Positions 3-27,744 are shown, numbered from the stretch's first letter. The stretch: DNA of 64,000 nt from a virus (IMGVR_UViG_3300023172_000011:32001-96000), one strand, 5' to 3'. A program made the numbers and translations. The notes: generated by a model not told the origin, from the letters alone.

Positions 3-389
3 GATACTGGTGGAACATTTGCTTATGACCAGTCTCAATTTATGATTAGAACTGTTGCAACAAAGATTAATAATCAATCAAACACAGTTCTTCAGGTCAA
101 TGGCACTCCAGAAAATCGCCCTCATACTCTTGTTAGCAATAAGTCGAAGGGTGCAAAGACATCAACTGCTCATAGAAGTGGTTACTGGCGTGCGACTGGT
201 ATTACTGGTCAAAGAACAAATTGGAGCAGTGCTCCTGCAACTAATAATATTAGCTATGTCTTGCCAACTAACAATGCTTCTAATGCTGTTGATCAAGGTC
301 AATTTGTTACATATAGAAGTATTCCGGGTGAACTTGCTTATATGTATGGTGCTATTGATGCTGTATTGAAAGATTATCCAGCTAAGTGA
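3..389 (+). CDS. Hypothetical protein, 5'-truncated; possibly virion-associated (Asn/Thr/Ser-rich)
   Basis: The frame of ORF 42..389 stays open to the window edge (DTGGTFAYDQSQFMIR...). A strong hairpin follows it. Confidence 0.6.
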   Translation, partial: DTGGTFAYDQSQFMIRTVATKINNQSNTVLQVNGTPENRPHTLVSNKSKGAKTSTAHRSGYWRATGITGQRTNWSSAPATNNISYVLPTNNASNAVDQGQFVTYRSIPGELAYMYGAIDAVLKDYPAK

Positions 390-413
390 TTGATTCTTGA
401 CACTTTCTTTTAA

Positions 414-443
414 ACCCCTCTCCCGTAAGGGAGGGGGGTATTT
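414..443 (+). terminator. Probable intrinsic terminator or stabilising hairpin
   Basis: ACCCCTCTCCC-GTAA-GGGAGGGGGGT forms an 11-bp stem (one G-U) with a GNRA loop and a short ATTT tail. Confidence 0.6.
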
Positions 444-448
444 GGAGA

Positions 449-724
449 TTGAATATGAACGCATTACCTTGGACTACAGATCTAGGAATTGTAGGACTGA
501 CTGTTTCTTCGCTGGTTAGCTTACTCTTTTATGTGATCATATCTAGTAACAAAAGAGAAGATCGTAGAAATGCACAGTTTCAAAAAACTATAAATGATAT
601 TAATGAACTCCATCGAGATGAACGTTCAGAATGGAGAGAAGACGCATCTGCTAGACAGGATAAAACTAATCAGGCATTGTCCGAATTAACAAAAGCAATC
701 AATGAAGTTTTAGTGACTAGGTAA
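449..724 (+). CDS. Single-TM membrane protein with coiled-coil tail; holin-like (BhlA/UviB-type architecture)
   Basis: Hydrophobic segment LGIVGLTVSSLVSLLFYVII followed by a charged helical C-terminus. GGAG upstream; the true start may be ATG 455. Confidence 0.5.
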   Translation: MNMNALPWTTDLGIVGLTVSSLVSLLFYVIISSNKREDRRNAQFQKTINDINELHRDERSEWREDASARQDKTNQALSELTKAINEVLVTR

Positions 725-729
725 AAATT

Positions 730-1236
730 ATGAGTCTATCAATAACAGCAACTCCAGTAAACAAAATTTCATATACTCTTGCGTCAACTAATGGTAATCA
801 GACCGTCTCATTATCAGACAGTAAAAACATGAGTGTTGTTTATACGTATGGGTCTGGTGATAAGCAAGTCACCAACGCTGTAACTATAACAGGCGTTTTA
901 ACGTCTGGAGAGTCTACGCAAATTGATCTATACTCAATTAATCAAACTTCTTTTGATGCAACAACCAGCGTAGTTTTCACTGGCGTAAAAAATTTCACAG
1001 TATATAATGAGTCTACCACAGAGGGATACGACTTTGCAGTTCAGGCCACTGGAACAAATGCATGTACAAATTTATTCAATGGAGGAAGTGGCAACCTTTT
1101 AGTAAAACCCTACTCGGCATTTACATACAATGATCCATTCACTGGAGTTAGTGTAGGCTCCAGTCAGAGATATGTTCAATTAGCTGATCAGGGATCTGGT
1201 GTTACTTACAGATTAATTGTTATTGGTTTAGATTAG
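730..1236 (+). CDS. Hypothetical beta-rich protein, possibly structural
   Basis: 168-aa ORF rich in T/S/N/G/V, tightly packed with its neighbours. Confidence 0.6.
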   Translation: MSLSITATPVNKISYTLASTNGNQTVSLSDSKNMSVVYTYGSGDKQVTNAVTITGVLTSGESTQIDLYSINQTSFDATTSVVFTGVKNFTVYNESTTEGYDFAVQATGTNACTNLFNGGSGNLLVKPYSAFTYNDPFTGVSVGSSQRYVQLADQGSGVTYRLIVIGLD

Positions 1237-1246
1237 GAGTTTTAAC

Positions 1247-1453
1247 ATGAATTCAAAAGCGTTTACATTAAACGTAGCCGACCTAGTTGCACTCAGTAAG
1301 AATGCAGGACTTGTTGGCGTTGCAGCAGGACTAACTTATGTTGTACAGAATATTGGTACTGTAGACCTTGGAGCCGCCGGTCCACTTGTGGTTCCAATCA
1401 TAGTAGTAGGTCTTGATACTGTAATTAAGTGGTTAAAAGACAACACAAAATGA
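1247..1453 (+). CDS. Small two-TM membrane protein, holin-like
   Basis: 68 aa with two hydrophobic segments, a basic C-terminus (KWLKDNTK) and an AGGAG RBS. Confidence 0.55.
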   Translation: MNSKAFTLNVADLVALSKNAGLVGVAAGLTYVVQNIGTVDLGAAGPLVVPIIVVGLDTVIKWLKDNTK

Positions 1454-1463
1454 GGTACAAAAT

Positions 1464-1799
1464 ATGGAATCACTAATAGGATTAGGAATGTTATTATTTT
1501 GTGCTTGGAATGGTTTTCAGGCATCAACTGTAGATGGATTTGATTTTACTATACGATGGTATGCTCAAACAATCATTAGCGGTCTTGGAGGACTTTATAT
1601 TATGATTCCAAATATTAAGAGTATTCTGTCTAGTCTTGGCAGTGATAGTCCATCACTGCCAGACTATTCCGACAAATACCAGAAGGATTTTGAATGTCTT
1701 TCTTATCTAAGAGATAGATGTGTCGAAAATGGAAGTAAAGAGGGATTAGATTTAGTCATTCAACTAAACACGATTTTATTTAAAAAGACTTTACCATAA
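1464..1799 (+). CDS. Membrane protein
   Basis: Two N-terminal hydrophobic segments and a GAGG RBS. Confidence 0.6.
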   Translation: MESLIGLGMLLFCAWNGFQASTVDGFDFTIRWYAQTIISGLGGLYIMIPNIKSILSSLGSDSPSLPDYSDKYQKDFECLSYLRDRCVENGSKEGLDLVIQLNTILFKKTLP

Positions 1800-1810
1800 A
1801 AGGAAAAACG

Positions 1811-2266
1811 ATGGGAAAATATCAGTCATTTGCAAATGTCCTTCTAGGATTATTACTATTATATTTCATGTCATCCTTTGCTCTTTCAGGTAAGCTAACT
1901 CCCGAATCAGCACCTCAACAAATTGTAGTTACTGAAACTCAAGAGTTGAAAAAAGTTACAGAAGAGTTTAATAAAATCGAATCAAGAGACGATAGAGTGC
2001 TTATCTATAAACTGTTTGCTGGTGCGGCAGAGTATCTCAGTAACTGCCAGACAATGACTGAAACAGCACAGTTTGATCCACTTCTAGGAAAAGTGCAAAC
2101 TTCCTATGGATGGGATCGCGAAAGATACTCAGCGTTTACAGATGCGGTTTCTAACTATCTTGTTAGCGTAGATTATGACACTCCTAAGAAATTGGAAACT
2201 ATAGATCAACGTAAGGATTTCGCAAAAATCTTTCAAGGTTTAGCAGAGGCAACTAAATATGAGTGA
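1811..2266 (+). CDS. Exported or membrane-anchored helical protein
   Basis: N-terminal VLLGLLLLYFMSSFAL signal/anchor and an AAGGA RBS; overlaps the next gene. Confidence 0.65.
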   Translation: MGKYQSFANVLLGLLLLYFMSSFALSGKLTPESAPQQIVVTETQELKKVTEEFNKIESRDDRVLIYKLFAGAAEYLSNCQTMTETAQFDPLLGKVQTSYGWDRERYSAFTDAVSNYLVSVDYDTPKKLETIDQRKDFAKIFQGLAEATKYE

Positions 2267-3164
2267 CCTATCCCATTTAGGAGGATGGATAAATGATCCA
2301 AAAGGTGTAGATCTAGCAATGCAAGGCTTACCTTTTCCAGTATTTTCTATGCAGCATCAAGCAATAAAAGATACTGGTGCTGGAAAGAAGATGTTACTAT
2401 ATGACATCATTAGAAGGGTTGCCGGAACGTTTCCTGTGCGTACACAGAAAATTGGAGACTGTGTAGCTTTTGGTGCTGCTGGTGCTGTCGATGCTATTAA
2501 ATGTGTAGACATCTACCTTAAAAAAGAACCAGAACTATGGGTAGCAGAAACTGCCACAGAAGATATTTATTGGGGTAGCAGAAACGTTATCGGTAAAGGT
2601 CGATTAGGTAACGATGATGGATCTCTCGGCGTATGGGCGGCAAAATATATTAATGAATATGGCTCAATTCCAAGAGGCAAGTATGCCGATATTGACCTAA
2701 CCACGTATAGTGGCAGTAAAGCAAAGACTTGGGGCAACGCTGGATATAAATTATCTCAAGCGTTTGTAGATATTGTAAAAGAACATCCAGTCGTTACTAT
2801 TTCTCAAGTCAATTCATATGAAGAAGTGAGAGATCTAATTGTTAATGGATATTCTGTAACCATTGCTAGTAATCAAGGATTTTCTTCAACGCGAGATAGT
2901 GAAGGGTTTGCAAGACCATCAGGTAGATGGGCACATCAAATGTGGATCTGTGCTGTTGATGATGAATATAAACGTCCCGGAGTTTGCGTTCAAAATAGCT
3001 GGGGTAAATGGAATGGAGGTCCAAAACGTCACGACCAACCGGATGGATCTTTTTGGGTCGATGCTGACGAGATTGAACGTCGCGTGCTAAAAACTGGCGA
3101 TTGCTGGGCATTTAGCGGGTATACTGGCTTTAAGCCACAGAAACTTAATACGAGGATCATCTGA
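2259..3164 (+). CDS. Papain-like (C1 family) cysteine peptidase
   Basis: Q-x-x-G-D-C (TQKIGDCVAFG), catalytic His in WAHQM, Asn in QNSWG, and downstream GSFW. Confidence 0.85.
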   Translation: MSDLSHLGGWINDPKGVDLAMQGLPFPVFSMQHQAIKDTGAGKKMLLYDIIRRVAGTFPVRTQKIGDCVAFGAAGAVDAIKCVDIYLKKEPELWVAETATEDIYWGSRNVIGKGRLGNDDGSLGVWAAKYINEYGSIPRGKYADIDLTTYSGSKAKTWGNAGYKLSQAFVDIVKEHPVVTISQVNSYEEVRDLIVNGYSVTIASNQGFSSTRDSEGFARPSGRWAHQMWICAVDDEYKRPGVCVQNSWGKWNGGPKRHDQPDGSFWVDADEIERRVLKTGDCWAFSGYTGFKPQKLNTRII

Positions 3165-3844
3165 TGAAAAAGAGCACGATTCTATTACTATTACTACTTG
3201 CTGTATTTTTTATTCCAATTCCAAGTAATGAAAAAACATTTGCTATTGATACTTCAAGAAGTGAGGGATATGTAGCATTTATTGTAAATGGAGACCAAGA
3301 GCCTATTGACAATGAAACAGATACTGCTACAACATGTGAATGCAATGGTGAAAAAGTGATCGTTCATGGAGATGGTCACAAAACACCATGTCAATGTATC
3401 AATTCTGGTGACGGGGTATGTCGTTGCGAAGCTACCGGCAAATCATGGGAGCCAGATAAATCTACTTATCCAGAGGAGGTTAAAAAAAAAGTGGAACAAC
3501 AACCAGATGCTACAGACCAAGCCTTAGCGATAGAATTAAAAAAAACAATCCTATACTTTACCGCCTCTTGGTGCGGCCCCTGTCAAAGATTTAAAGCGAC
3601 GGAATTACCAAAGCTACAAAAGGCCGGTCTATCAGTTGGCGAAGCTAGAAATGGAGTACAGGACGATATGGAAATTGTCGATGTAGACAAGCATCCCGAT
3701 CTCTGGAAGGCCCACAAAAAGAATTCTGCTGGTATTCCATGTTTTATTGTTCTAGACTCGCAAAGAAAAGAAACATTCCGTACTAGCGGATACGTTTCTG
3801 GAATGCATCAAACCCTGCTAAGAGCCTTCAATGCAGCCAACTGA
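3164..3844 (+). CDS. Exported thioredoxin-family protein with a Cys-rich N-terminal domain
   Basis: Signal peptide MKKSTILLLLLLAVFF; CECNG...HGDGHKTPCQC...CRC domain; YFTASWCGPC active site; VDVD and cis-Pro loop GIPCF. Confidence 0.85.
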   Translation: MKKSTILLLLLLAVFFIPIPSNEKTFAIDTSRSEGYVAFIVNGDQEPIDNETDTATTCECNGEKVIVHGDGHKTPCQCINSGDGVCRCEATGKSWEPDKSTYPEEVKKKVEQQPDATDQALAIELKKTILYFTASWCGPCQRFKATELPKLQKAGLSVGEARNGVQDDMEIVDVDKHPDLWKAHKKNSAGIPCFIVLDSQRKETFRTSGYVSGMHQTLLRAFNAAN

Positions 3845-4118
3845 ATATTTTGAAATTGTTCAACAAATCTTTTCACAAGATGGGTTGACAATCGGGCCTT
3901 TAAGGATACAATGTTCTGGAGCCTTATCGGTACAAATTGAAAGCGTGCAGTCCGGAATCAAAATTATTTTTTCTGGTCACAAGCCAAAAGTAACACTGCA
4001 AAAAATTATAACATTTTCAGTGTCTGTAAATGGCATCCATTTTTCTCAAAATGGCGGCGTTTTAGAACTAGATCATTTTCCGGACCTACCTTTCTCGTAT
4101 AATCAAATATTAAAATAA
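3831..4118 (+). CDS. Hypothetical protein
   Basis: 95-aa ORF overlapping the end of the thioredoxin gene; last gene before a terminator. Confidence 0.6.
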   Translation: MQPTEYFEIVQQIFSQDGLTIGPLRIQCSGALSVQIESVQSGIKIIFSGHKPKVTLQKIITFSVSVNGIHFSQNGGVLELDHFPDLPFSYNQILK

Positions 4119-4133
4119 ATACAATTGACATAT

Positions 4134-4169
4134 ATGCCAGCAGCAATAAAAAACTGCTGGTATTTTTTT
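4134..4169 (+). terminator. Intrinsic terminator
   Basis: ATGCCAGCAG/CTGCTGGTAT stem with a 10-nt loop and a T7 tract. Confidence 0.75.
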
Positions 4170-4190
4170 CCACTTTGAAGGACGTTGAAT

Positions 4191-9122: not shown

Positions 9123-9830
9123 ATGAGAAAAAAAAGAACAAGAAGACCAGTCAATAAACCAGATTTTAGACCAGTAAATAAAAGGAAAGATAAACAGTCA
9201 AGAACGGCGGTTAAATCCGTTACTGCTAAAACAGACAATCATCATAATTATATTATGTCGATTATTAATAATCCAATCACAATTTGTGTTGGACCTGCTG
9301 GTTCTGGGAAATCTTATATTAGTGCTGGGATGTTTGCCAATTTTTTGCATGAAGGAAGTTACGACAAAATTATTGCAACTCGTCCATTAGTATGCTCCGG
9401 AAAAGAATTAGGATCACTTCCCGGAGAGATGAATGAAAAGATTGCACCTTACCTAAAGCCTATTGAGGAAAATATTAAGAATTTTCTTGGTCAGGCTAAC
9501 TATGGCCTCCACTATAATGACGGCAAGATTCGTTATGAACCGCTTGAAGTCATGAGAGGTGCAACCTTTGATTATTGTTGCATGATTTTGGACGAAGCAC
9601 AAAACTGCACCTTGGATCAATTAAAAATGTTTATCACTCGCATGGGCAAGAATTCCAAGGTTATTATCAATGGGGATATCAATCAAACCGATTTAAGATC
9701 TCGTAGCGGGCTTGAAACTTTAATAAGAAAAGTTGGAAATATTGAAGGGGTTGGAGTTTGTTATCTAACCTATGATGACATTCAAAGAAATGGAATTATT
9801 GGGGAAATCCTGAGAGCATTGGAGGAATAA
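9123..9830 (+). CDS. phoH: PhoH-like ATPase
   Basis: GPAGSGKS, LGSLPG, MRGATF, ILDEAQN and GDINQTDL motifs. Confidence 0.93.
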   Translation: MRKKRTRRPVNKPDFRPVNKRKDKQSRTAVKSVTAKTDNHHNYIMSIINNPITICVGPAGSGKSYISAGMFANFLHEGSYDKIIATRPLVCSGKELGSLPGEMNEKIAPYLKPIEENIKNFLGQANYGLHYNDGKIRYEPLEVMRGATFDYCCMILDEAQNCTLDQLKMFITRMGKNSKVIINGDINQTDLRSRSGLETLIRKVGNIEGVGVCYLTYDDIQRNGIIGEILRALEE

Positions 9831-10171
9831 TGCCAACATATGACTATTTATGCTCAAATTGTGAAACCGAGCTAAAAGATGTATACCAAAGCATAACCGA
9901 AAAGGCTATAATATATTGTATCAGTTGCGGAAATGATACGCTTGAAAGAGTGATTCATCCCCCAATGGTATTTGTTCGTCAAGAGGCAACTACGATTGGT
10001 CAGCTATCTGAGCGTAACGCTAAAAGGCTTGGACAGTCAGAAGTTCAAGAGCGAACACTGCAAGATAAAGATTCTAAAAAATCTGCACTAAAAGAAGCAA
10101 AGAAAGAAATAAACTCTCAAATCAATAAAATGAATTCGGAGCAAAAACGTCGTTTCATAGAGGGCGGATAA
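9830..10171 (+). CDS. FmdB-family zinc-ribbon protein
   Basis: MPTYDYLCSNC...CISCG...LERVI. Confidence 0.8.
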   Translation: MPTYDYLCSNCETELKDVYQSITEKAIIYCISCGNDTLERVIHPPMVFVRQEATTIGQLSERNAKRLGQSEVQERTLQDKDSKKSALKEAKKEINSQINKMNSEQKRRFIEGG

Positions 10172-17996: not shown

Positions 17997-19835
17997 ATGA
18001 TTAGAAATCACAGCCATTATTCATTACTTATGTCTACATCTCGATCTAAGCAGATTGCCAAAGCCTGCAAAGATGCTGGATATAGATATGCTGGAATTAC
18101 TGATGTAGCCACGATTAGCGGCTGCGTTAATTTCATACAAGCATGTAAAAAGGAAGATATCACCCCGCTCATTGGATCTGAGATTATCTTAGATGATAAT
18201 TCAAGACTAACTCTTGTATGTAGAAATATTGAAGCATGGGATGATTTACTTGGAGTTATATCTCAGGCCAATTCTAAAGATAACCATGATGGCACTCCAA
18301 AAATTTCATTTGCCGATTTGACACAAAGCATTAATCCAGACAACTTTATCTGCATTGATGGCTATGTCGGTAGTAAGCTATTTAATAAACTATTTCCAAA
18401 TATAGACTGCATCTTTGATGCTGCCGATATTGAAATGGTTAAGTCATGCATTGACAATAACTGGAAAGAAATACTCAATGATGAAATAGCGTTGATGCAT
18501 CAAACATTTGCTCATTATTATCTAGAAGTCAACAATCTTGACTCAGATACTTTCCCGATCTCCAAGGTAATGTCTGACATTCTATCCGTCTATGACAATG
18601 TAATTCCGAATACATCAAGTTATTATCCCGAAAGAAAAGATGCTGTTGATCATCGCGTATTAATCTGTACTAAGCTGAAGACAACTATGCGTCAACTTGC
18701 CGATAAGATTAGCAATGCTAAAGATATCGACTTGCTTAAATTTATTAGGAGTAGCTCATACCATATTAAGACTAGAGAAGCTATTGAAGCAGCATACAGT
18801 TCAGAACAGGTAGATAATCTTGACAAGATTACTGAATTGTGTGCCGACATTAATATCCTATCCAAACCTAAGCTGCCAAACTTTGAAACTCCGGATGGAA
18901 GCACTGAAGATGAATATCTAAAGGAGCTATGTCGTAAGGGATGGAAACGTCTCATTATGACTGGAGTAGATCCATATAAATATGATATATATAAAGATCG
19001 TGTACTTAAAGAGCTAGAGGTTATCGAAAAGGCAAATCTTGCCGGATACTTCTTAATCGTTCAAGATTATGTTAACTATTTTAGAAATCAAGGATGCTTG
19101 GTTGGTCCCGGTCGAGGTTCTGGTGGTGGATCATTAGTATGCTATCTCACAGGAATTACTCTAATCGACCCAATTGAATATGGCTTGATTTTTGAACGAT
19201 TCTATAATGAAGGTAGAAATACTGAAGATCATGTATCACTTCCCGATATCGACATTGACTTTCCGCCATCGTACCGTGATAAGGTTGTCGAATATCTAAA
19301 GAATAAATATGGCGATAGTCAAGTTTGCCAGATGCTTACATTTGGTAGACTTGCAGGAAGGTCTATTTTGAAGGAAGTGTTAAGAGTCAATGAGTCGTGC
19401 AGTTTTGACGAAATGAATAAGATTACGGAGAGGATTCCAAACGAAGCTGCCATTTCCGACCTGCTGGAAGAAATGGATAATCCATCAGTAATTCGCTGGG
19501 CTTTGGAAAATGACAGGAATTCTCTAATTGATTACTGCTGGCTTGACGATGACGATACTCTACAAGGCGAGTATGCTAAGGTGTTTGAGCAGGCAATGCG
19601 TATGGAAGGCGTCTTCAAAACTCAAGGCAAACATGCTGCTGGCGTTGTAATTGCATCTGATGACTTGACAAAAATCTGCCCTATGGTAAAATCATCTCGT
19701 AGTTCCGAGCAAATTGCGGGCATGGAAATGGGCGACTTAGAAGCTATTGGATGTGTTAAATTTGACATTTTAGGCGTTTCTCTTCTGGAGAAAATTTCAA
19801 ATACTGTTGAGGAAATTAATTATGAATTATCGTGA
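17997..19835 (+). CDS. dnaE: DNA polymerase III alpha, N-terminal half (PHP, palm and thumb)
   Basis: NHSHYSLL, GYFLIVQD, GPGRGSGGGSLV, FERF, PDIDIDF, GKHAAGVVI and VKFDILG; the ORF ends just after the palm. Confidence 0.93.
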   Translation: MIRNHSHYSLLMSTSRSKQIAKACKDAGYRYAGITDVATISGCVNFIQACKKEDITPLIGSEIILDDNSRLTLVCRNIEAWDDLLGVISQANSKDNHDGTPKISFADLTQSINPDNFICIDGYVGSKLFNKLFPNIDCIFDAADIEMVKSCIDNNWKEILNDEIALMHQTFAHYYLEVNNLDSDTFPISKVMSDILSVYDNVIPNTSSYYPERKDAVDHRVLICTKLKTTMRQLADKISNAKDIDLLKFIRSSSYHIKTREAIEAAYSSEQVDNLDKITELCADINILSKPKLPNFETPDGSTEDEYLKELCRKGWKRLIMTGVDPYKYDIYKDRVLKELEVIEKANLAGYFLIVQDYVNYFRNQGCLVGPGRGSGGGSLVCYLTGITLIDPIEYGLIFERFYNEGRNTEDHVSLPDIDIDFPPSYRDKVVEYLKNKYGDSQVCQMLTFGRLAGRSILKEVLRVNESCSFDEMNKITERIPNEAAISDLLEEMDNPSVIRWALENDRNSLIDYCWLDDDDTLQGEYAKVFEQAMRMEGVFKTQGKHAAGVVIASDDLTKICPMVKSSRSSEQIAGMEMGDLEAIGCVKFDILGVSLLEKISNTVEEINYELS

Positions 19836-20502
19836 CTACATTGTTTATGACTTTGAAACTACATCAGCTAATCCGTACACAACACAACCCGTACAGATTG
19901 CCGCTGTTGTTGTTCATGGTCGTAAACTTGAAATCAAAGAAGGTTCCGAGTTTCAGTCTTTAATGAAGCCAGAGCTAAACATAAAAAAGTGTGAAACACT
20001 TGGTGTTGACCCGCTTGAAGATGGTGCCGTTGCAGTTCACGGAAAGACCGCAGAAATGCTAAAGAAGGCACCAACTATTAAAGCCGTCTGGAAAAACTTT
20101 ACAGATTACGTCAATCAGTACAACTTCAAAGGAAGTAATTGGTCGGCACCAGTATCTGTAGGATATAATATCAAGGGTTTTGACTCTATCATCGTGAATC
20201 GCCTATGTACGACAGATCCGTGGAATTTTGGACCTGTAGATAACAAGCGTGGCGAGCAGGATTTGTTCAATCGAATTCATAGCATTGACATGCTTGACTT
20301 TATGTTTGCATTGTTTGAAAACAATAAAGATGTGAATTCACTTTCTGCCGATAATCTTGTCCGTGGATATATGGGTTACGATAAAGGGACGGCACATGAT
20401 GCAATGTCCGACGTTATTATGACAGCGGAATTATTCTGTAGAACTATGAGAATGTTAAGAAGCACAGCGTCTCGTAAAACGTTTAAGGGTGCATTTGCAT
20501 GA
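19822..20502 (+). CDS. DnaQ-like (DEDDh) 3'-5' exonuclease
   Basis: ExoI YDFETT, ExoII GYNIKGFD, ExoIII AHDAMSD. ATG 19822 follows GAGGA and overlaps the end of dnaE-N. Confidence 0.9.
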   Translation: MNYRDYIVYDFETTSANPYTTQPVQIAAVVVHGRKLEIKEGSEFQSLMKPELNIKKCETLGVDPLEDGAVAVHGKTAEMLKKAPTIKAVWKNFTDYVNQYNFKGSNWSAPVSVGYNIKGFDSIIVNRLCTTDPWNFGPVDNKRGEQDLFNRIHSIDMLDFMFALFENNKDVNSLSADNLVRGYMGYDKGTAHDAMSDVIMTAELFCRTMRMLRSTASRKTFKGAFA

Positions 20503-20539
20503 TTGAACATAAAGAAAAAAAATAACAAGGTCAATAAAG

Positions 20540-22099
20540 ATGCAGAAGATTGATATCACAAAATTGAATGAAAATGATCGTGCCGTTTGGGATATGATTG
20601 GCGAAGGCCGTGTCAAGGGATGCTTTCAAATTGAGAGTCATCTTGGCAAGACATGGTGCAGGGCACTGAAGCCTGATAATATTCTTGAATTAGCAGCACT
20701 GATTAGTATTATTAGACCCGGAACCTTAAAGGCTTTCGTCGATGGAAAGTCTATGACCCAGCATTATGTAGATAGAAAGCATGGTAAAGATAAAGTTCCA
20801 AGCCTGCATCCAGCTATTGATAAGCTACTTGAAGAAACTTACGGAGTTATTGTATATCAAGAACAGGCGATGGAAATCGCTGTTAAGATGGCTGGATTCA
20901 ACTTGAAAGAGGCAGACGACTTACGCAAGGCTATTGGTAAAAAGAAGGCGGATCTGATGAAGCAGGTTCGCGTCAAGTTTATTGATGGATCTAAACAAAA
21001 TAATATTGAAGAAAGCAAGGCTACTGAGATCTTTGACATGATCGAAAAGTCGGCTAGGTATTCATTCAATAAATCTCATGCAGTAGCATATGCTAAAATG
21101 GCCTATTGGTCAGCTTATATAAAAAATTACTATGTTGACAGGTTTATGAAAAACTGGCTACGAGATGCCGATGATAAGATTGATCCCGATATGGAAAAGC
21201 GTCAACTTATTATGGCAGCAAGAGCGGAAGGTCTTGAAATCAAAGGTCCAAGCATTTCAGTACTTGAGGAAAACTTCACTTTCGGAAAACGCGATGGTAT
21301 GTTTCCAGCTATTCATTTCGGCATTTGCAACGTCAAGAATGTTGGTGCAATTCATCTCCAACAATTAAAGGATAGTATCTCAAATATTTCAAGCATAAAC
21401 TGGTCCAACCTATTGGTTCATGTACTACCTAATGTAAATAAGAGAGCTATAGAAAACTTAATTAGCGTTGGTGCGTTTGCTGGTCTTGGCAAATCAAGAA
21501 CGGAAATGATTCATGAGTTTCACTGCTTTTCTGACTTTACCAAGAAAGAAATGCAGTCAATACAAGAACATCTCAATATTAATAATTTAACAGCGGCAGA
21601 AATTGTAAAAAATCTACTATCCTATGGAGTTAAAAAGGATGGAGGATTTATATCTACACAGAGCCGATACATGAAGATTGAGGATATCTTGATGAGAATT
21701 CAAAATCCCGGCAGGAATCTTGCTGACAACTCCATGACATATGCTAGAATAGAAGAAAAGCTGCTTGGATATGCGATTAATCACTCGGAACTCAACGCCT
21801 GTTCAGATGCATGTCACGCAAATGCCACATGTAAACAATTGACAGATGGCAGAGCAGACAATTGTGTTATTGCTGTAATTATTAAAACTGTTAGAGAGCA
21901 TAAAACTAAGAACGGCGACATCATGGCTTTTGTATCTGCCGAAGATGATTCTGGAGAATTAGAAAATATTGTTATTTTTCCTGATGTATACGAGCAAAAC
22001 AAAGATATAATATACGATAGAGCCACAGTATTATTATCTGGTCAAATAAAAGATAAAACCAGAAATTCATTTATTATTGATAAAGTTTTTAGCATTTGA
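20540..22099 (+). CDS. dnaE: DNA polymerase III alpha, C-terminal half (fingers, HhH, OB)
   Basis: GCFQIES, IRPG, TYGVIVYQEQAM, ADDLRKAIGKK, YSFNKSHAVAY, FGICNVKNVG and KTKNGDIMAF. Confidence 0.93.
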   Translation: MQKIDITKLNENDRAVWDMIGEGRVKGCFQIESHLGKTWCRALKPDNILELAALISIIRPGTLKAFVDGKSMTQHYVDRKHGKDKVPSLHPAIDKLLEETYGVIVYQEQAMEIAVKMAGFNLKEADDLRKAIGKKKADLMKQVRVKFIDGSKQNNIEESKATEIFDMIEKSARYSFNKSHAVAYAKMAYWSAYIKNYYVDRFMKNWLRDADDKIDPDMEKRQLIMAARAEGLEIKGPSISVLEENFTFGKRDGMFPAIHFGICNVKNVGAIHLQQLKDSISNISSINWSNLLVHVLPNVNKRAIENLISVGAFAGLGKSRTEMIHEFHCFSDFTKKEMQSIQEHLNINNLTAAEIVKNLLSYGVKKDGGFISTQSRYMKIEDILMRIQNPGRNLADNSMTYARIEEKLLGYAINHSELNACSDACHANATCKQLTDGRADNCVIAVIIKTVREHKTKNGDIMAFVSAEDDSGELENIVIFPDVYEQNKDIIYDRATVLLSGQIKDKTRNSFIIDKVFSI

Positions 22100-22441: not shown

Positions 22442-22914
22442 TGGATTCTCAAGTTGAAAAAATGATTGAAGAGAACAAAAACCTTATCTACAGTATTGCA
22501 AATTCTCTTTATATCCCAAACAAGGCATTTAGCATAGAAGATCTAATCCAAGTTGGATTTTTAGCAATTTGCAAAAGTGCAAATAAATACAATCCAGAAC
22601 GAGGAAGGGTCTCAACATTTATTACGCACTGTGCTAAGAATGATATGATAAAGTTTATTAGAAAAAATAAGATTGGCCGTGAACTAATTTATAATGAATT
22701 AAAGAGCCTTAGTTATGATGAAACAGAAGAAATTCTCAAATCTGATGTATTGGATTATTATAATTTAAAAAATACAATTGAAGAAAAGATTGTGACACTA
22801 AAGAGAAATGGCGAATCCAATAGAGCTATTGGCAAAAAACTAAATCTAAACTCGAATAAAGTGTCTTCAATACTTTCAGAAATCAAAGAAAGGCTAGCAA
22901 CAAATAATGGCTAG
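22438..22914 (+). CDS. Phage-encoded RNA polymerase sigma factor (sigma-70 region 2 plus region-4 HTH)
   Basis: EDLIQVGFLAI.KS..KYNPERG..STF and a C-terminal GESNRAIGKKLNL HTH. Confidence 0.85.
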   Translation: MMDSQVEKMIEENKNLIYSIANSLYIPNKAFSIEDLIQVGFLAICKSANKYNPERGRVSTFITHCAKNDMIKFIRKNKIGRELIYNELKSLSYDETEEILKSDVLDYYNLKNTIEEKIVTLKRNGESNRAIGKKLNLNSNKVSSILSEIKERLATNNG

Positions 22915-24547
22915 AAAAAAAAGAGTACTCTTCATTAGCGAGGCCGCATATCTAAATACGGGATATGCAAAATACAGTAAGGAAGTAATATCGCGTCTAT
23001 ATAGAAGCGGTAAATACGATGTAGCGGAAATGTCTGTATATGGAGCCGCTAATGATCCAAGACGCTCCAGTATTCCTTGGAAAAATTATCCAGTTCTTCC
23101 AGATGAGCATAACGAAGAACAAATGAAATCGTATAATTCTAGTCCGGGCAATCAATTTGGAAGCTGGAGATTTGAAAGAGTTTGTTTAGATTTCGAGCCA
23201 GATATTGTTTTAACAATTCGTGATTATTGGATGGATGCCTTTGTATATCATTCTCCATATAGAAGAATTTTCAAATGGGCATGGATGCCAACTGTAGATG
23301 CATCGCCACAGAATCCAGAATGGATTGATTTATTCTGTGATGCAAATTATGTACTAACCTATTCTGATTGGGCTAAGAATGTCCTAGAAGAACAGGCTGG
23401 AAAGAACATAAATACAGTTGGCTCTGCCCCTCCATCAGCATCCGATGCTTTCATTCCTATGAATCAAAAATCTGTTAGAGATGAATTTGGCGTCCGCGAT
23501 GATATAAATATTATTGGTAGTGTAATGAGGAATCAACGTCGGAAGTTATTTCCCGCGTTGATTTCTGCATTTAGTAAGTATCTAAAAGAAACTGGCGACA
23601 CCAAAACATATTTGTATATGCATACCAGCTATCCAGACGCTGGATGGAATTTAGCAAACTTAATCCACTCTAATGATATCTCTTCTAGAGTTTTAATGAC
23701 ATACGTATGCGGAAACACAGATTGCAAAAATGTTGAAGTCTGTTTTTTTTCAGATGCCAGAAAAGTCTGCCTTAAATGTAATAAATTTAGTTCAATGCCG
23801 TCTAGTGTATCTAATGGCGTTTCAGATGAAATACTGGCAAAGATATATAACATTTTTGATCTTTACCTTCAGCCAGCAAATTCAGAAGGGTTCGGTCTTC
23901 CTCAAGTTGAGGCTGCTGCATGTGGAATACCAATTGCCTGCACTAACTATTCCGCTATGGAAGACATTGTTAATAAACTAGATGCATATCCAATATCTTA
24001 TACAAAGTATAAAGAATTAGAAACTGGATGTGATCGTGCTGTTGTTGATGAGAATAGCATAGTAGAGATCATAAAAACTTTTCTATCAGACAAAACTCAA
24101 AAGAGTAATATTCGTCAGCTATTTGAAGATCATTATAGCTGGGACAAGACTGCCGCAAAGTGGATGGAAGTCATTGACGACTGTGAATATGCTGACTGGA
24201 AACAGCCTGCAAATATCATTAGACCTTCAAAAATAAATATGGAAGAAAAGTCTAATGAAAGATTTGTGCGGGAGTTAACCGAACTATTTTGCTACTACGA
24301 GGGGCACAAAAACTCGTACTTTACGAGGAACTTAATGTCTGATCTAACAAAAGGATCTAGCAAGATTGCGTGGGATGATCATTTCTCTAATGAATTTACT
24401 CCATCAAATCCAAATAAACAAAGACCAGTTGATAGGCAGTCAATTATTAATGTATTTGGTCGGAGACTAGAGAATTATAATATCTGGGAAGATGTGAGAA
24501 TAAATAGATCTAAATTAAAAGACGGGAACGAATTATGGCTAAACTAG
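22907..24547 (+). CDS. GT4-like (GT-B) glycosyltransferase with a Cys4 insertion
   Basis: TGYA, RNQRRK, YNIFDLY, SEGFGLPQVEAAACGIP and YSWDK; insert CGNTDC...CLKC. Confidence 0.88.
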   Translation: MARKKRVLFISEAAYLNTGYAKYSKEVISRLYRSGKYDVAEMSVYGAANDPRRSSIPWKNYPVLPDEHNEEQMKSYNSSPGNQFGSWRFERVCLDFEPDIVLTIRDYWMDAFVYHSPYRRIFKWAWMPTVDASPQNPEWIDLFCDANYVLTYSDWAKNVLEEQAGKNINTVGSAPPSASDAFIPMNQKSVRDEFGVRDDINIIGSVMRNQRRKLFPALISAFSKYLKETGDTKTYLYMHTSYPDAGWNLANLIHSNDISSRVLMTYVCGNTDCKNVEVCFFSDARKVCLKCNKFSSMPSSVSNGVSDEILAKIYNIFDLYLQPANSEGFGLPQVEAAACGIPIACTNYSAMEDIVNKLDAYPISYTKYKELETGCDRAVVDENSIVEIIKTFLSDKTQKSNIRQLFEDHYSWDKTAAKWMEVIDDCEYADWKQPANIIRPSKINMEEKSNERFVRELTELFCYYEGHKNSYFTRNLMSDLTKGSSKIAWDDHFSNEFTPSNPNKQRPVDRQSIINVFGRRLENYNIWEDVRINRSKLKDGNELWLN

Positions 24548-25278
24548 GAACATTTTGTAATGAATGCTGTTTCTATAATCCAGATAAAAAAGAATGCAGT
24601 CATGGCCTTATAGATATGTTTACGCAGCGGGGAGCGACTATAGAATGGAATGATGACGGCCCATCAATAGATAGAGTTTGTAGATATAGAAGAACTCATG
24701 ACTGGAATGAAGACTTATCATTAGAAGAAAAAATAAAACTTTGTGAAGAAGAGGTATTTCTTTCCGGCTCAATAATTCTATTAGTTCAAGAGATTGATAA
24801 CGTCAAAGATATCCTCTCCAAATTAAAAGATGTAACAAATAATCGTTTTAAATTTATTATATCACATGAATGTAAGTTGAGTCCATTATTAGAAATCTCT
24901 AAAGAATTAGATATTCATGCTTCATTTGTTAGAAGCGTTGATGAAGATGTGTCTGACGAAAAACGAGTTTTTGATTGCTTAAAGCATCTGAAAAACGGGT
25001 ATGTCTTTCTTTTTAATTGTGATAAAGAAATTGACTATACTATTTTTGAAAAGGTCCATAAATTTACTACCAAGTTGATGCACCGTGTATTACATATCGA
25101 ACCGATTGATGAAAAGCTACATCAGTCCGTCAGTATGGTACATATTTATAAATGGCTTAATGGAGATATGATGGAATCGTTTTCTAATAAGCTAAAAAAC
25201 ATAGCCAGTGAAGAATCTAGCGACCCCCAAGTATTCAATTGGAAAGAAATCAATGAAGCATGTGCTAATAATCTATAA
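24535..25278 (+). CDS. Hypothetical protein with Cys-rich N-terminus; possible degenerate GT-A fold
   Basis: CNECCF...C..G...C.Y.R N-domain; lies within the GT cluster. Confidence 0.55.
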   Translation: MAKLGTFCNECCFYNPDKKECSHGLIDMFTQRGATIEWNDDGPSIDRVCRYRRTHDWNEDLSLEEKIKLCEEEVFLSGSIILLVQEIDNVKDILSKLKDVTNNRFKFIISHECKLSPLLEISKELDIHASFVRSVDEDVSDEKRVFDCLKHLKNGYVFLFNCDKEIDYTIFEKVHKFTTKLMHRVLHIEPIDEKLHQSVSMVHIYKWLNGDMMESFSNKLKNIASEESSDPQVFNWKEINEACANNL

Positions 25279-25828
25279 GATATTCTCAGATCTTAATCAA
25301 GATTACTTACAAAAAATAATAAATGGGTGTAAGTCAAAGAAGCATAATGTAACAATTAACTTCCATGATTTTACGCTGTCCAAAAAAATTAGATCTCAAA
25401 TTGAACATGTTGAGTTCTCTGACTTAGAAGCGATTAACATCTCTGATGAAAACTATGAAGATATTGAAAAATCAGATCAAATTATTGTTCAAAAACTAAT
25501 AAGTTATAGCCACTTTGATGTAGTCTCAATATTAGTGCATGATATATTACTAGATAATGCAATAGACCAAATTGATTTTTCGGTTTTAGAGAACAGCAAT
25601 GTCGCGTCAATTTATCCAGATAATAATACTCGGACACCATTTAGCACAAGGGTTTATGGCAGGTCGCATCCGTTAATGAATGCAGGAGTTAGGTGTTTAT
25701 TTGTAGACATGTCAAAGTTGTTCTCAGTCTTAGGTAATGAGCATCCTGTAGGAGAAATCTACAATAATTATCCGTCTTGTCATTTTCCAGAAGTACTATT
25801 CACTGCTAACGCATTAAAGAATGAATAG
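25253..25828 (+). CDS. Hypothetical protein, possibly GT-related
   Basis: Likely start MKHVLIIY at ATG 25253, overlapping the previous gene. Confidence 0.55.
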   Translation: MKHVLIIYKIFSDLNQDYLQKIINGCKSKKHNVTINFHDFTLSKKIRSQIEHVEFSDLEAINISDENYEDIEKSDQIIVQKLISYSHFDVVSILVHDILLDNAIDQIDFSVLENSNVASIYPDNNTRTPFSTRVYGRSHPLMNAGVRCLFVDMSKLFSVLGNEHPVGEIYNNYPSCHFPEVLFTANALKNE

Positions 25829-26516
25829 ACAAGAATGCATCCATACTATCAAGCAAACTCATCTTGATAAAGTAACATTTATTATATTATGCGGAGGCAA
25901 GTCTGGAGTTAAGGGTACTCAAAATATACCATTAACATGTATTGACTATAATAATACGGTAGTAGACCATCAAATACAAACAATAAATAAGAATTATGAA
26001 CATGCAGATATCATGTTAATGACCAGCTTTGAGTCAAAAAAAATAATCCAGCATATAGATGAAAAACAATATAGCAATGTACGCATATTTGAAAATAAAA
26101 ATTATATAGAGGAAAGCATAATAGATACTTGGAAACTTGCTGTAAATTGCTGTTCAGAAGGAAGTTTTTTTTTAATACATGGTGACAGAATCTTTAATAG
26201 CGATGCGATAACGCCATATGATGAAAATAGAATCTCTATTAGTGTTTATAACAATATTAAGAAAAACTATAATCTTGGCATAACATATGAAAACAATAAG
26301 CTAATAAATATGTCATATGGCCTACCAACCATCTGGTCAGAAATTCTTTTTGTGCCAAAATTATACTATAGAACTATCAAGTCAAAATTAAACGAGGCAA
26401 AAACCAAAAAAATTTATACGGTTGAAAAATTCTTAAATACTGTAAATCAAGAAATAGACATTTATGTTGATCGCAAAAATAAAATCAGCATTAAGTCATT
26501 AAAGGAAATGATATGA
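25821..26516 (+). CDS. Sugar/choline-phosphate nucleotidyltransferase-like protein (divergent)
   Basis: IILCGG..G.K...P, HQI, ENKNY and IHGD motifs of the NTP_transferase/LicC fold. Confidence 0.6.
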   Translation: MNRQECIHTIKQTHLDKVTFIILCGGKSGVKGTQNIPLTCIDYNNTVVDHQIQTINKNYEHADIMLMTSFESKKIIQHIDEKQYSNVRIFENKNYIEESIIDTWKLAVNCCSEGSFFLIHGDRIFNSDAITPYDENRISISVYNNIKKNYNLGITYENNKLINMSYGLPTIWSEILFVPKLYYRTIKSKLNEAKTKKIYTVEKFLNTVNQEIDIYVDRKNKISIKSLKEMI

Positions 26517-27292: not shown

Positions 27293-27744
27293 AAACAATG
27301 ATATGCTTGGATCACTTAGCTTATTCTTATCAAAACTACGAACTGTTCCATTCTATTAATGAGGTCGTAGAAAATTCACTAGAGGAAGTATGTATTGTTC
27401 CATTCAATGCTAGTAGACCATTTATGAATATCAATACATCCATCTATAATGTTGGAGAAATGAGTTCGTTTAATAATGGGTTGCTTATCTCCAATAGCAT
27501 CAAGCATGTAGATAAGTTGCTATCGTGTCCATCAAATACAATCAAGGCGTTGTATCTATATGATTTAGAATGGATGTTTGAGCCAACCTTCTTTGAAGAA
27601 CTATATAGTATTTTCACTAATAAAAACCTAAAACTTATTGTAAGATCCAAAGAGTTCATCGAGCCAATACAATGTATTGCTGATAGAACGCCAGATGCAA
27701 TTGTACCCTATTTCAAATTGGAGAAGATATGGAATTCGCTTTAA
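27289..27744 (+). CDS. Hypothetical protein (GT-cluster associated)
   Basis: ATGA overlap; YLYDLEW and LIVRS motifs. Confidence 0.55.
   Translation: MKTMICLDHLAYSYQNYELFHSINEVVENSLEEVCIVPFNASRPFMNINTSIYNVGEMSSFNNGLLISNSIKHVDKLLSCPSNTIKALYLYDLEWMFEPTFFEELYSIFTNKNLKLIVRSKEFIEPIQCIADRTPDAIVPYFKLEKIWNSL

What the first reader, a model, noticed from the sequence alone, without database searches (positions are those of the whole stretch)
449..4118. Candidate non-canonical lysis or envelope-breaching cassette: holin-like proteins, papain-like protease and exported WCGPC thioredoxin
Seen: a block bounded by hairpins (414-443 and 4134-4169) with four membrane or exported proteins, a C1 cysteine protease with no signal peptide, and a translationally coupled thioredoxin. 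The thioredoxin has a signal peptide and a WCGPC site. I recognise no lysozyme, amidase or M15/M23 endolysin anywhere in the window. Established: holin-dependent endolysins lack signal peptides; WCGPC is the reducing-type thioredoxin motif; Cys-rich, disulfide-linked proteinaceous envelopes are described for Planctomycetes and Chlamydiae. Inference: the protease sits in the endolysin slot, and the exported reductase either opens disulfide cross-links of a protein wall or keeps the catalytic Cys reduced outside the cytoplasm. That would be a reduce-and-proteolyse lysis system.
Basis: partly seen in the sequence, partly recalled or inferred. Interest (0 to 1): 0.75.

Follow-up and report, generated by a model that had tools for sequence, protein, structure and literature searches.

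The report
Phage papain-type protease with exported thioredoxin
An uncultured salt-marsh phage carries a conserved gene block of small membrane proteins, a papain-family cysteine protease and an exported thioredoxin that most likely acts on the host cell envelope, probably as an unusual lysis system.

Summary
Window 449-4118 has eight tightly packed + strand ORFs between two stable hairpins. ORF6 is a papain-fold cysteine protease without a signal peptide. ORF7 overlaps its stop codon (TGATG) and is a signal-peptide protein with a Cys-rich knuckle and a WCGPC thioredoxin domain.

New evidence:
- ORF3-ORF8 keep their order in most of 38 related viral loci.
- The protease/exported-redox-protein pair recurs in 40 of 71 more distant viral loci.
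- In 31 of 87 distinct viral protease ORFs the protease has a twin-arginine (Tat) leader, and in 4 a membrane anchor. The family therefore works outside the cytoplasm.
- No common endolysin family scored over its cut-off in 24 protease-carrying viral records, 8 of them at least 96% complete. A control weakens this: only 3 of 8 cultured phages scored with four of those families.
- A ClpP-type protease sits in the head-gene arm, so ORF6 is not the obvious prohead protease.

Best reading (about 0.5): an envelope-directed lysis module. The protease fills the endolysin slot and the exported redox protein protects or activates its catalytic cysteine. The "protein wall of Planctomycetes" idea has no support, and the host is unknown. 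The protease family is also an intein hot spot at its catalytic residues.

The parts
3..389 (+). 3' part of the upstream gene (203 aa in full, G000 31778-32389). It is the first gene behind a promoter-like motif and has no family match.
   Evidence: ORF. No PHROG or NCBIfam hit for the full protein. The motif TGGCGTATAC lies 82 nt upstream, outside the window. A homologue lies upstream of the module in 16 of 38 loci.
414..443 (+). G+C-rich hairpin between the upstream gene and ORF1. It is a possible attenuator or terminator with a weak T tail.
   Evidence: -26.6 kcal/mol, z -4.5. RNA-library contigs over the upstream gene stop at 401-550 in 3 of 4 runs, which is a weak hint only.
449..724 (+). 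ORF1, 91 aa (probable start at ATG 455): one N-terminal transmembrane segment and a charged C-terminal half. It is holin-like (BhlA type) but below threshold.
   Evidence: PF10960 E 0.001, 19.4 bits against a cut-off of 22.6. phrog_2429 at 1.6e-5. TM at 13-31. Found in only 2 of 38 loci by blastp.
730..1236 (+). ORF2, 168 aa, no hydrophobic segment and no family. Its position varies among relatives.
   Evidence: Found in 15 of 38 loci, in some of them downstream of ORF7.
1247..1453 (+). ORF3, 68 aa, small membrane protein with two hydrophobic stretches and a charged KW-KDNTK tail. It is the best holin candidate.
   Evidence: Alignment of 27 sequences. Found in 33 of 38 loci. No family hit.
1464..1799 (+). 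ORF4, 111 aa: two weak hydrophobic segments, a variable linker and a conserved C-terminal domain of about 40 aa.
   Evidence: Found in 25 of 38 loci.
1811..2266 (+). ORF5, 151 aa: an N-terminal anchor (with a lipobox in some homologues) and a compact five-helix bundle. An N-terminally anchored protein also stands just upstream of the protease in distant loci.
   Evidence: Model pLDDT 87.6. No PDB match at E <= 0.001. A lipobox-like ...G-C is seen by eye in L010, L025, L030, L037 and L039. Found in 34 of 38 loci. Distant loci.
2259..3164 (+). ORF6, 301 aa: papain-fold cysteine protease (Q63, C68, H226, N246-S-W-G) with no signal peptide. It is the candidate envelope-degrading enzyme.
   Evidence: Homologue P0214 matches PF00112 at 30 bits against a cut-off of 20.7. 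The family has 1843 cluster representatives at E <= 0.001.
3164..3844 (+). ORF7, 226 aa: signal peptide, an EGYVAFIVN motif, a Cys-rich knuckle (C-x-C-x-G...HGDGH-x-T-P-C) and a thioredoxin domain with WCGPC.
   Evidence: The start overlaps the ORF6 stop. Found in 37 of 38 loci. An ORF7-like gene lies just downstream of the protease in 40 of 71 distant loci.
3831..4118 (+). ORF8, 95 aa, with no hydrophobic segment and no family. It is fused to the ORF7 homologue in L022 and L023.
   Evidence: Found in 34 of 38 loci. Fusion seen.
4134..4169 (+). Stem-loop followed by seven T: an intrinsic-terminator-like end of the block, ahead of nrdA.
   Evidence: -14.3 kcal/mol, z -3.8.

Best explanation
The block is an envelope-directed late module of a large tailed phage, most likely its lysis system.

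Shown:
- ORF6 is a papain-family cysteine protease.
- ORF7 is an exported Cys-knuckle plus thioredoxin protein.
- The two genes are linked across many phage lineages.
- Many homologues of the protease carry Tat or membrane-anchor export signals.

Inferred:
- In this phage the signal-less protease accumulates in the cytoplasm.
- It reaches the periplasm when a small membrane protein opens the inner membrane. ORF3 is the best candidate and ORF1 the second.
- There it cuts the cell wall peptide or wall-tethering envelope proteins. It thus takes the place of an endolysin.
- The exported redox protein ORF7 keeps the single catalytic cysteine reduced in the oxidising periplasm, or reactivates it.
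- ORF4, ORF5 and ORF8 are accessory envelope proteins of unknown role.
For: 1. Fold and catalytic residues. There is a sequence bridge to Pfam Peptidase_C1 through homologue P0214.
2. Conserved order: by blastp, ORF3 is in 33, ORF4 in 25, ORF5 in 34, ORF6 in 38, ORF7 in 37 and ORF8 in 34 of 38 related viral loci. Several of those loci are cut short.
3. In 71 further loci an ORF7-like gene lies just downstream of the protease in 40. It is a signal peptide plus thioredoxin with W-C-x-x-C, a short thioredoxin, or a signal peptide plus Cys knuckle alone.
4. Export: of 87 distinct protease ORFs in viral loci, 31 have an RR-x-F-L-type leader, 4 a membrane anchor, 47 none and 5 could not be judged. 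The query was Tat-bearing, so the shares are biased. At least 16 of the 150 listed cluster representatives carry Tat, signal-peptide, lipobox or anchor N-termini (partly judged by eye).
5. No lysin family: 11 families gave nothing at E <= 0.01 in G000-G003. Seven families gave nothing over the cut-off in 20 more records, of which 7 are at least 96% complete.
6. The ClpP-type protease in the head arm fills the maturation slot.
7. In two complete relatives (L049, L091) the pair lies 0.9-1.1 kb upstream of the terminase large subunit gpA. As I recall, that is where lambda-like phages keep their lysis genes.
8. The motif TGG[AC]GTATA[CG] occurs 6 times in G000, always 32-82 nt upstream of a same-strand gene. 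These genes include the one ahead of this block and three in the structural arm. The relaxed pattern TGGNGTATA stands 55-81 nt ahead of the upstream-gene homologue in 6 related loci.
9. The block holds the densest cluster of membrane proteins in the record.
Against: - No test of activity exists. A papain C1-type enzyme acting as an endolysin is not documented in the papers I could search.
- The protease is far more conserved than endolysins usually are. It shows 57-100% identity over the best 120 hits and is about as conserved as nrdA in the same loci. It also hosts inteins at its catalytic residues. This suggests a strongly constrained core enzyme.
- Holin calls are weak.
- ORF5 models as a compact helix bundle, not a spanin-like coiled coil.
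- The block lies in the replication arm next to nrdAB, not beside the structural genes, in this phage.
- The promoter-like motif also precedes two non-structural gene groups, so late timing is not shown.
- The missing-endolysin argument is only moderate. With four of the families, only 3 of 8 cultured phages scored over the cut-off. In addition, G000 is only 75% complete.
- A Tat-exported lytic enzyme would need a brake, and none has been identified.
Confidence: 0.5

Rival explanations
1. A periplasmic envelope-remodelling module that is not the lysis enzyme. The protease, with its redox helper, would cut host surface or periplasmic proteins during infection. Possible purposes are destroying receptors, blocking superinfection or disabling an envelope defence. 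Lysis would be done by an unrecognised enzyme.
For: Export signals on many homologues would deliver the enzyme before lysis. Conservation is unusually high and inteins are present. The block sits in the replication arm next to nrdAB. 5 of 8 cultured phages also lack hits to four lysin families, so an undetected endolysin is plausible.
Against: Receptor-directed functions usually vary with the host, whereas this enzyme is conserved across many lineages. No other lysin candidate was seen in 24 records. The pair lies next to the terminase gene in two complete relatives.
Confidence: 0.2
2. The exported thioredoxin reduces disulfide cross-links of a cysteine-rich protein wall, as described for Planctomycetes or Chlamydiae, and the protease then digests it.
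For: The protease and the reductase-type motif WCGPC are linked and are both directed at the envelope. No peptidoglycan hydrolase was found.
Against: No host evidence at all. The thioredoxin domain is absent in 6 of 30 aligned ORF7 homologues. The C-x-x-C dipeptide varies widely, for example CGPC, CEPC, CNPC, CAPC, CSVC and CVYC. An exported thioredoxin has no evident electron source. Early promoters look like ordinary sigma-70 sites, which fits many bacterial hosts.
Confidence: 0.07
3. The thioredoxin is a reductant for the neighbouring ribonucleotide reductase, like T4 NrdC. On this view the protease and membrane proteins are unrelated neighbours.
For: ORF7 lies directly upstream of nrdA/nrdB. 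It matches phrog_22, a thioredoxin domain family filed under nucleotide metabolism.
Against: An N-terminal signal peptide or lipobox is conserved in the 30 aligned homologues. The gene stays with the protease in loci that have no nrdA nearby. A terminator-like hairpin separates the block from nrdA.
Confidence: 0.03
4. ORF6 is a virion or prohead maturation protease.
For: It is a highly conserved protease of a tailed phage. A promoter-like motif is shared with structural genes.
Against: A ClpP-family protease lies in the head-gene arm. ORF6 lies among membrane and exported proteins, and 35 of 87 distinct homologous ORFs carry export signals. Export is incompatible with work inside cytoplasmic proheads.
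Confidence: 0.03

Closest known systems
Holin-endolysin(-spanin) lysis cassettes of tailed phages, e.g. lambda S-R-Rz/Rz1 (recalled)
   Same: Small membrane proteins stand next to a signal-less hydrolase in one tightly coupled operon. Relatives of the hydrolase exist both in signal-less and in exported forms, as in lysozyme-type endolysins. The pair lies near the terminase gene in two relatives.
   Different: The hydrolase is a papain C1-type protease, not a lysozyme, amidase or M15/M23 peptidase. No spanin pair is recognisable, since ORF5 is a compact helix bundle. A dedicated exported redox protein is part of the unit.
Cysteine-peptidase endolysin domains CHAP and NlpC/P60 (papain-like clan; PMC10318531, passages read)
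   Same: Cys-His peptidases of the papain-like superfamily that cut peptidoglycan peptides and serve as phage lysins.
   Different: ORF6 groups by fold with C1 enzymes such as xylellain and cathepsins B and S. It keeps the C1 motif N-S-W-G and the oxyanion Gln. PF05257 and PF00877 did not match ORF6 in the Pfam scan, but I did not search the genomes for them.
Xylellain, cysteine protease of Xylella fastidiosa (PDB 3ois)
   Same: Best structural match (E 5.6e-10 to 9.6e-10, TM 0.55-0.65). It is a bacterial C1-type enzyme. As I recall, it has an N-terminal stretch that covers the active site.
   Different: 16-17% identity. There is no phage context and no linked thioredoxin that I know of. The role of ORF6 residues 1-60 was not resolved, because pLDDT is low there.
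Periplasmic protection of single catalytic cysteines by DsbG/DsbC, and disulfide caging of the P1 Lyz SAR endolysin (both recalled, not checked in papers here)
   Same: A thioredoxin-fold protein in the periplasm that keeps a catalytic cysteine of a wall-active enzyme reduced, and a lysis enzyme whose activity is gated by thiol-disulfide exchange.
   Different: Here the redox partner is encoded by the phage next to the enzyme. It often carries a DnaJ-like Cys knuckle. No interaction could be shown.
T4 NrdC-type phage thioredoxin (recalled)
   Same: A phage thioredoxin gene beside nrdAB.
   Different: ORF7 has a conserved signal peptide and a Cys-rich domain, and it travels with the protease rather than with nrdAB.

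Membership tests
Peptidase C1 (papain family, Pfam PF00112) | Papain fold (two-lobed alpha + beta) | tested here: met
   The model (pLDDT 84.3) matches 195 PDB chains at E <= 0.001. The top matches are xylellain, (pro)cathepsin B and cathepsin S. In BFVD the top matches are 'Peptidase_C1 domain containing protein' entries.
Peptidase C1 (papain family, Pfam PF00112) | Catalytic Gln-Cys...His...Asn with the Asn-Ser-Trp-Gly motif | tested here: met
   Q63, C68, H226, N246, S247, W248 and G249 are invariant in 23 sequences. The match to papain numbering is recalled.
Peptidase C1 (papain family, Pfam PF00112) | Sequence match to the family profile over the curated cut-off | tested here: inconclusive
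   ORF6 itself has no hit at E <= 0.1. Homologue P0214 scores 30 bits against a cut-off of 20.7, and P0242 scores 17.5 bits.
Peptidase C1 (papain family, Pfam PF00112) | Secreted C1A hallmarks: conserved disulfide pairs and an I29-type propeptide | tested here: not met
   C68 is the only invariant Cys. There is no Pfam inhibitor or propeptide hit. ORF6 is thus a divergent branch and not a classical C1A enzyme.
Phage endolysin (functional class) | Degrades the host cell wall at the end of infection | not testable with these tools
   Needs enzyme assays and genetics.
Phage endolysin (functional class) | Reaches the wall through a holin or through its own export signal | tested here: inconclusive
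   ORF6 has no signal. Homologues have Tat leaders or anchors in 35 of 87 distinct ORFs. The holin candidates are unproven.
Phage endolysin (functional class) | It is the phage's only wall- or envelope-degrading candidate | tested here: inconclusive
   0 of 24 protease-carrying records have a hit over the cut-off to the lysin families tested. However, only 3 of 8 cultured control phages scored with four of those families.
Thioredoxin (Pfam PF00085) | Profile match over the cut-off, a C-x-x-C motif and the cis-proline | tested here: met
   29 bits against a cut-off of 23.5. C137, P139, C140 and P192 are invariant in 18 sequences. Reading P192 as the cis-Pro is recalled.
BhlA holin family (Pfam PF10960), for ORF1 | Profile match over the cut-off | tested here: not met
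   19.4 bits against a cut-off of 22.6, E 0.001. phrog_2429 matches at 1.6e-5. The architecture is similar only in outline: an N-terminal TM and a charged tail.
Spanins (i-spanin / o-spanin), for ORF5 and ORF7 | An inner-membrane protein with a long periplasmic coiled coil, paired with a small outer-membrane lipoprotein | tested here: not met
   ORF5 models as a compact five-helix bundle. Lipoboxes occur only in some homologues of ORF5 and ORF7. No family hit.

The most novel reading that the evidence does not exclude
A redox-gated lysis system built on a new endolysin class. A papain C1-type protease is either released by a holin or pre-exported by Tat or Sec. In the oxidising periplasm its lone catalytic cysteine is oxidised or blocked, so the enzyme stays inert. 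It is switched on by the phage's own exported thioredoxin / DnaJ-like Cys-knuckle protein, once membrane permeabilisation lets cytoplasmic reductant reach the periplasm. This would also be the first Tat-routed phage lysis enzyme that I know of.
Probability: 0.15. Interest if true: 0.85.

Novelty: new variant of a known kind. Interest (0 to 1): 0.7.

Why it matters
If the protease is the lysis enzyme, a large and widespread group of environmental phages lyses its hosts with an enzyme class not counted among endolysins. The group comprises 1843 protein clusters at 50% identity and at least 572 viral contig stretches. A dedicated periplasmic redox partner would be part of that system.

This would explain why no endolysin is recognised in these genomes. 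It would add a new scaffold for enzyme-based antibacterials. It would also give a concrete system for studying how a cysteine enzyme is kept active, or kept in check, in the oxidising periplasm.

Independently, the family is one of the densest intein hosts I have seen outside DNA-metabolism genes, with insertions at each catalytic residue. That bears on how homing inteins choose their sites.

Tried and rejected
- Direct Pfam, PHROG and NCBIfam scans gave nothing for ORF2, 4, 5, 6 and 8, and only a sub-threshold NCBIfam row (E 0.061) for ORF3.
- tblastn of ORF6 against 50,697 phage records gave no match. phmmer against PDB sequences gave only a chance hit at E 2.3.
- Host search. The genome-contig scan found only two phage-like contigs in MAGs labelled SAR202 and Aureispira. 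The DUF1501 protein of the record has only unnamed, apparently phage-borne close relatives. No tRNA lies in the window. The host therefore remains unknown.
- Complex prediction of ORF6 with ORF7 residues 28-226 returned no answer (score 0.00, mark 0.32). This is no evidence either way.
- The ORF5 model has no PDB match at E <= 0.001. The best rows are generic helix bundles such as Csm2, at E 0.1.
- The protein-atlas search gave no usable hit for ORF8 or for the upstream gene.
- Fusions of the protease to wall-binding domains: 10 longer homologues showed none, only inteins and Peptidase_C1. Some BFVD structural neighbours are named 'Peptidoglycan binding-like' or 'N acetylmuramidase'. I could not inspect their architectures, so I do not use them as evidence.
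- RNA-library contigs of four salt-marsh runs cover pieces of the block. The tool warns that DNA can be present in such libraries and that depth cannot rank genes. I treat this as a hint of transcription only. Uncovered parts mean nothing.
- Literature searches found no description of a C1 protease / thioredoxin lysis module, a Tat-routed endolysin of this kind, or inteins in such a protease. I saw search listings only, except for passages of PMC10318531, PMC12753301 and PMC5968864. Supplements were closed and may hold relevant gene tables.
- I rejected the RNR-reductant and prohead-protease readings (see the rival explanations).

Full report
WHAT IS THERE

The window is bases 32001-96000 of a 118,642-base IMG/VR virus record that is judged 75% complete. 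Bases 449-4118 hold eight + strand ORFs with gaps of 12 nt or less, or with overlaps.

Two hairpins flank the block:
- The stretch 405-452, which holds 414-443, folds at -26.6 kcal/mol (z -4.5).
- The stretch 4125-4175, which holds 4134-4169, folds at -14.3 kcal/mol (z -3.8) and is followed by seven T.

ORF5/ORF6 overlap by 8 nt, ORF6/ORF7 share one base (TGATG) and ORF7/ORF8 overlap by 14 nt.

A hydropathy script gives clear hydrophobic segments in ORF1, ORF3, ORF5 and ORF7 and weaker ones in ORF4. It gives none in ORF2, ORF6 and ORF8. I had no SignalP or TMHMM, so the topology statements are inferences.

THE PROTEASE (ORF6)

ORF6 has no Pfam, PHROG or NCBIfam hit and no tblastn match in 50,697 phage records. 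It does have at least 500 close homologues in metagenomes, and the best 120 show 57-100% identity.

In an alignment of 23 homologues Q63, C68, H226 and N246-S247-W248-G249 are invariant. This is the papain pattern as I recall it.

The AlphaFold model (pLDDT 84.3, pTM 0.86) matches 195 PDB chains at E <= 0.001. Xylellain 3ois comes first (5.6e-10), followed by procathepsin B and cathepsin S. In BFVD the top matches are phage proteins named Peptidase_C1.

A profile search of 1.84 billion cluster representatives found 1843 relatives at E <= 0.001 and 799 at E <= 1e-30. One of them, P0214, matches Pfam Peptidase_C1 over its cut-off (30 bits against 20.7). ORF6 is therefore a divergent papain-family enzyme. 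It lacks conserved disulfide cysteines, since only C68 is invariant.

THE REDOX PROTEIN (ORF7)

ORF7 matches Thioredoxin (PF00085, 29 bits against a cut-off of 23.5).

Aligning 30 distinct homologues shows a constant N-terminal architecture:
- a signal peptide, or in L019 and L022 a lipobox-like L-G-C / F-G-C;
- an EGYVAFIVN motif;
- a Cys-rich knuckle, C-x-C-x-G-[ST]-x(4)-HGDGH-x-T-x-C.

The thioredoxin domain follows in most homologues. It is missing in six (L013, L017, L019, L029, L032, L039). In L022 the thioredoxin part is replaced by ORF8-like sequence, that is, a fusion with ORF8; L023 holds the same 230-aa ORF.

In 18 homologues that have the domain, C137, P139, C140 and P192 are invariant. 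In distant loci the knuckle reads C-x-x-C-x-G-x-G. As I recall, this is the DnaJ zinc-finger motif, and some proteins carrying it have disulfide-isomerase activity.

LINKAGE

Thirty-eight related viral loci were fetched. By blastp on their ORFs the counts out of 38 are:
- ORF3 in 33
- ORF4 in 25
- ORF5 in 34
- ORF6 in 38
- ORF7 in 37
- ORF8 in 34
- ORF1 in only 2
- ORF2 in 15

The order is the same throughout. Several loci are truncated, so the misses are partly technical.

A second scan used an alignment of Tat-bearing homologues. It found 572 viral stretches that encode a relative, and 80 loci were kept. In the 71 new loci, profile HMMs built from my alignments found an ORF7-like gene in 40, ORF3 in 9, ORF5 in 8, ORF8 in 7 and ORF4 in 4. 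The ORF7-like gene always lay just downstream of the protease in the loci I printed.

An N-terminally anchored protein of unrelated sequence stands just upstream of the protease in most of the 11 loci I inspected. The conserved core is therefore anchored protein, then protease, then exported redox protein.

WHERE THE ENZYME WORKS

Among 87 distinct protease ORFs from the viral loci:
- 31 carry an N-terminal RR-x-[FL]-[LIV]-type leader followed by a mildly hydrophobic stretch (Tat-like);
- 4 carry a strongly hydrophobic anchor;
- 47 carry nothing;
- 5 could not be judged.

The second scan was seeded with Tat-bearing sequences, so these shares are biased upward.

Among the 150 listed cluster representatives I saw at least 8 Tat-like leaders and at least 8 signal-peptide, lipobox or anchor N-termini (partly by eye). 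One protein, P0263, continues after the protease domain into a second hydrophobic segment and a Cys-containing tail.

The same catalytic domain thus occurs with no signal, with Tat leaders and with anchors. This is the pattern known from endolysin families (soluble versus exported or SAR forms, recalled). It argues that the substrate lies outside the cytoplasm.

IS THERE ANOTHER LYSIS ENZYME?

Six-frame searches covered G000 and three relatives, one of which is 162,690 bases and 98% complete. The families were:
- Phage_lysozyme
- Amidase_2
- SLT
- Peptidase_M15_4
- Peptidase_M23
- Glyco_hydro_19
- Glyco_hydro_108
- Amidase_3
- Peptidase_M15_3
- PG_binding_1
- Glyco_hydro_25

They gave 0 matches at E <= 0.01. 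The built-in control was silent for GH19 and GH108, so those two are uninformative.

Seven of the families were then searched in 20 further protease-carrying records, 7 of them 96-100% complete. There were 0 matches over the cut-off and three sub-threshold rows.

A Pfam scan of 122 G000 ORFs of at least 70 aa listed no lysin family. In two of the four batches only 25 of 31 and 25 of 32 families were shown.

Control: four of the families were searched in eight cultured phages chosen by nrdA or DnaE similarity. Only three scored over the cut-off (W01, W04, W06), and one more scored sub-threshold. Absence is therefore suggestive, not decisive.

OTHER CONTEXT

- The record encodes a split DnaE, DnaB, RecA, SSB, PhoH, nrdAB, two sigma-70-type factors, many sugar-nucleotide and glycosyltransferase genes and a 2172-aa tape measure protein.
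- A ClpP-family protease lies at G000 107077-107751, in the head-gene arm.
- The motif TGG[AC]GTATA[CG] occurs six times, against 2.5 expected for the 10-base core TGG[AC]GTATA. Each copy lies 32-82 nt upstream of a same-strand gene. One copy precedes the gene just upstream of this block, three precede genes in the structural arm and two precede other gene groups.
- The relaxed pattern TGGNGTATA stands 55-81 nt upstream of the homologous upstream gene in six related loci. The block may thus be read from that promoter through the first hairpin, but the timing is not shown.
- Early regions show ordinary TTGACA...TATAAT sites.
- In two complete relatives the protease/redox pair lies 0.9-1.1 kb upstream of a gpA-type terminase large subunit.
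- The stretch occurs in salt-marsh, seawater, estuary and mangrove metagenomes. Pieces of it occur in salt-marsh RNA libraries.

MECHANISM

Most likely (about 0.5) the block is the phage's lysis module:
1. A small membrane protein (ORF3, perhaps ORF1) permeabilises the inner membrane.
2. The protease then reaches the periplasm and cuts wall peptides or wall-tethering proteins.
3. The exported redox protein protects or reactivates its single catalytic cysteine in the oxidising periplasm.

Steps 1-3 are inference. What is shown is the fold, the residues, the export signals and the linkage.

Points against this reading:
- the enzyme's unusually high conservation;
- the weak holin calls;
- the compact helix-bundle model of ORF5, which is unlike a spanin;
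- the position of the block in the replication arm;
- the control result above.

The main rival (about 0.2) is a periplasmic remodelling or exclusion function. The RNR-reductant and prohead-protease readings are unlikely (about 0.03 each).

NOVELTY

Searches of the paper library found no description of such a module. Papain-like CHAP and NlpC/P60 lysins are known (PMC10318531, passages). I rate the finding as a new variant of a known kind: a holin/endolysin-type lysis system with a new enzyme family and a dedicated redox partner. It remains unproven.

SIDE FINDING: INTEINS

Of the 150 listed representatives, 37 carry at least one insertion of 100 aa or more. The insertions fall at three sites:
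- directly before the catalytic Cys (28 proteins);
- after His226-x-Met (10 proteins);
- after Asn246 (4 proteins).

Five proteins carry two insertions. The inserts begin with Cys and end with His-Asn followed by Cys. They hold LAGLIDADG and intein-splicing domains.

Noticed in passing
Homologues of window 2259-3164: loci L005, L006, L007, L028, L030, L034, L037 (insertion before the catalytic Cys) and L035 (after His226-Q-M); proteins P0122-P0266: The protease family is an intein hot spot. 37 of 150 cluster representatives carry inserts of 100 aa or more at three sites, each next to a catalytic residue (Cys68, His226, Asn246). Five carry two inserts. The inserts start with Cys, end in His-Asn before a Cys, and contain LAGLIDADG-type domains.
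   Followed up: partly
G000 positions 6638, 9704, 31696 (+ strand) and 85813, 89263, 105076 (- strand), i.e. window -304, 53813, 57263 and 73076 for four of them: A promoter-like motif TGG[AC]GTATA[CG], often preceded by TTCA, lies 32-82 nt upstream of a same-strand gene in 6 of 6 copies. It may be the site of one of the phage's two sigma factors. The relaxed pattern TGGNGTATA precedes the homologous upstream gene in L008, L010, L030, L034, L037 and L038.
   Followed up: partly
window 17997-22099: The DnaE-type polymerase is split into two ORFs (612 and 519 aa). A 231-aa RNase_T-family exonuclease gene lies between them.
   Followed up: no
G000 1-32000 (loci L042, L043) and window 22907-29235: There is a large set of sugar-nucleotide and glycosyltransferase genes (DegT aminotransferase, epimerases, GDP-mannose dehydratase, dTDP-sugar isomerase, GHMP kinase, cytidylyltransferases, radical SAM, several GT1/GT2). 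There are also two adjacent DUF1501 genes (E 9e-111) whose closest relatives are all unnamed metagenomic, apparently phage-borne proteins.
   Followed up: partly
C-termini of ORF7-like thioredoxins in L054, L056, L058, L061, L063, L049 and L092, and of protease homologues: Many of the linked thioredoxins end in an aromatic motif such as P-D-Y-K-I-W or Y-E-L-W. Several protease homologues also end in hydrophobic or aromatic residues. The meaning is unknown.
   Followed up: no
window 397-402 and 4125-4130: Both flanking hairpins are preceded by TTGACA and followed by TATTT. I did not test whether this is a shared regulatory element or chance.
   Followed up: no
G000 9773-9973 (locus L042): A 66-aa ORF with a lipobox-like L-S-G-C and a proline-rich tail, behind a copy of the promoter-like motif. 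It superficially resembles an o-spanin but could be a plain membrane anchor.
   Followed up: no
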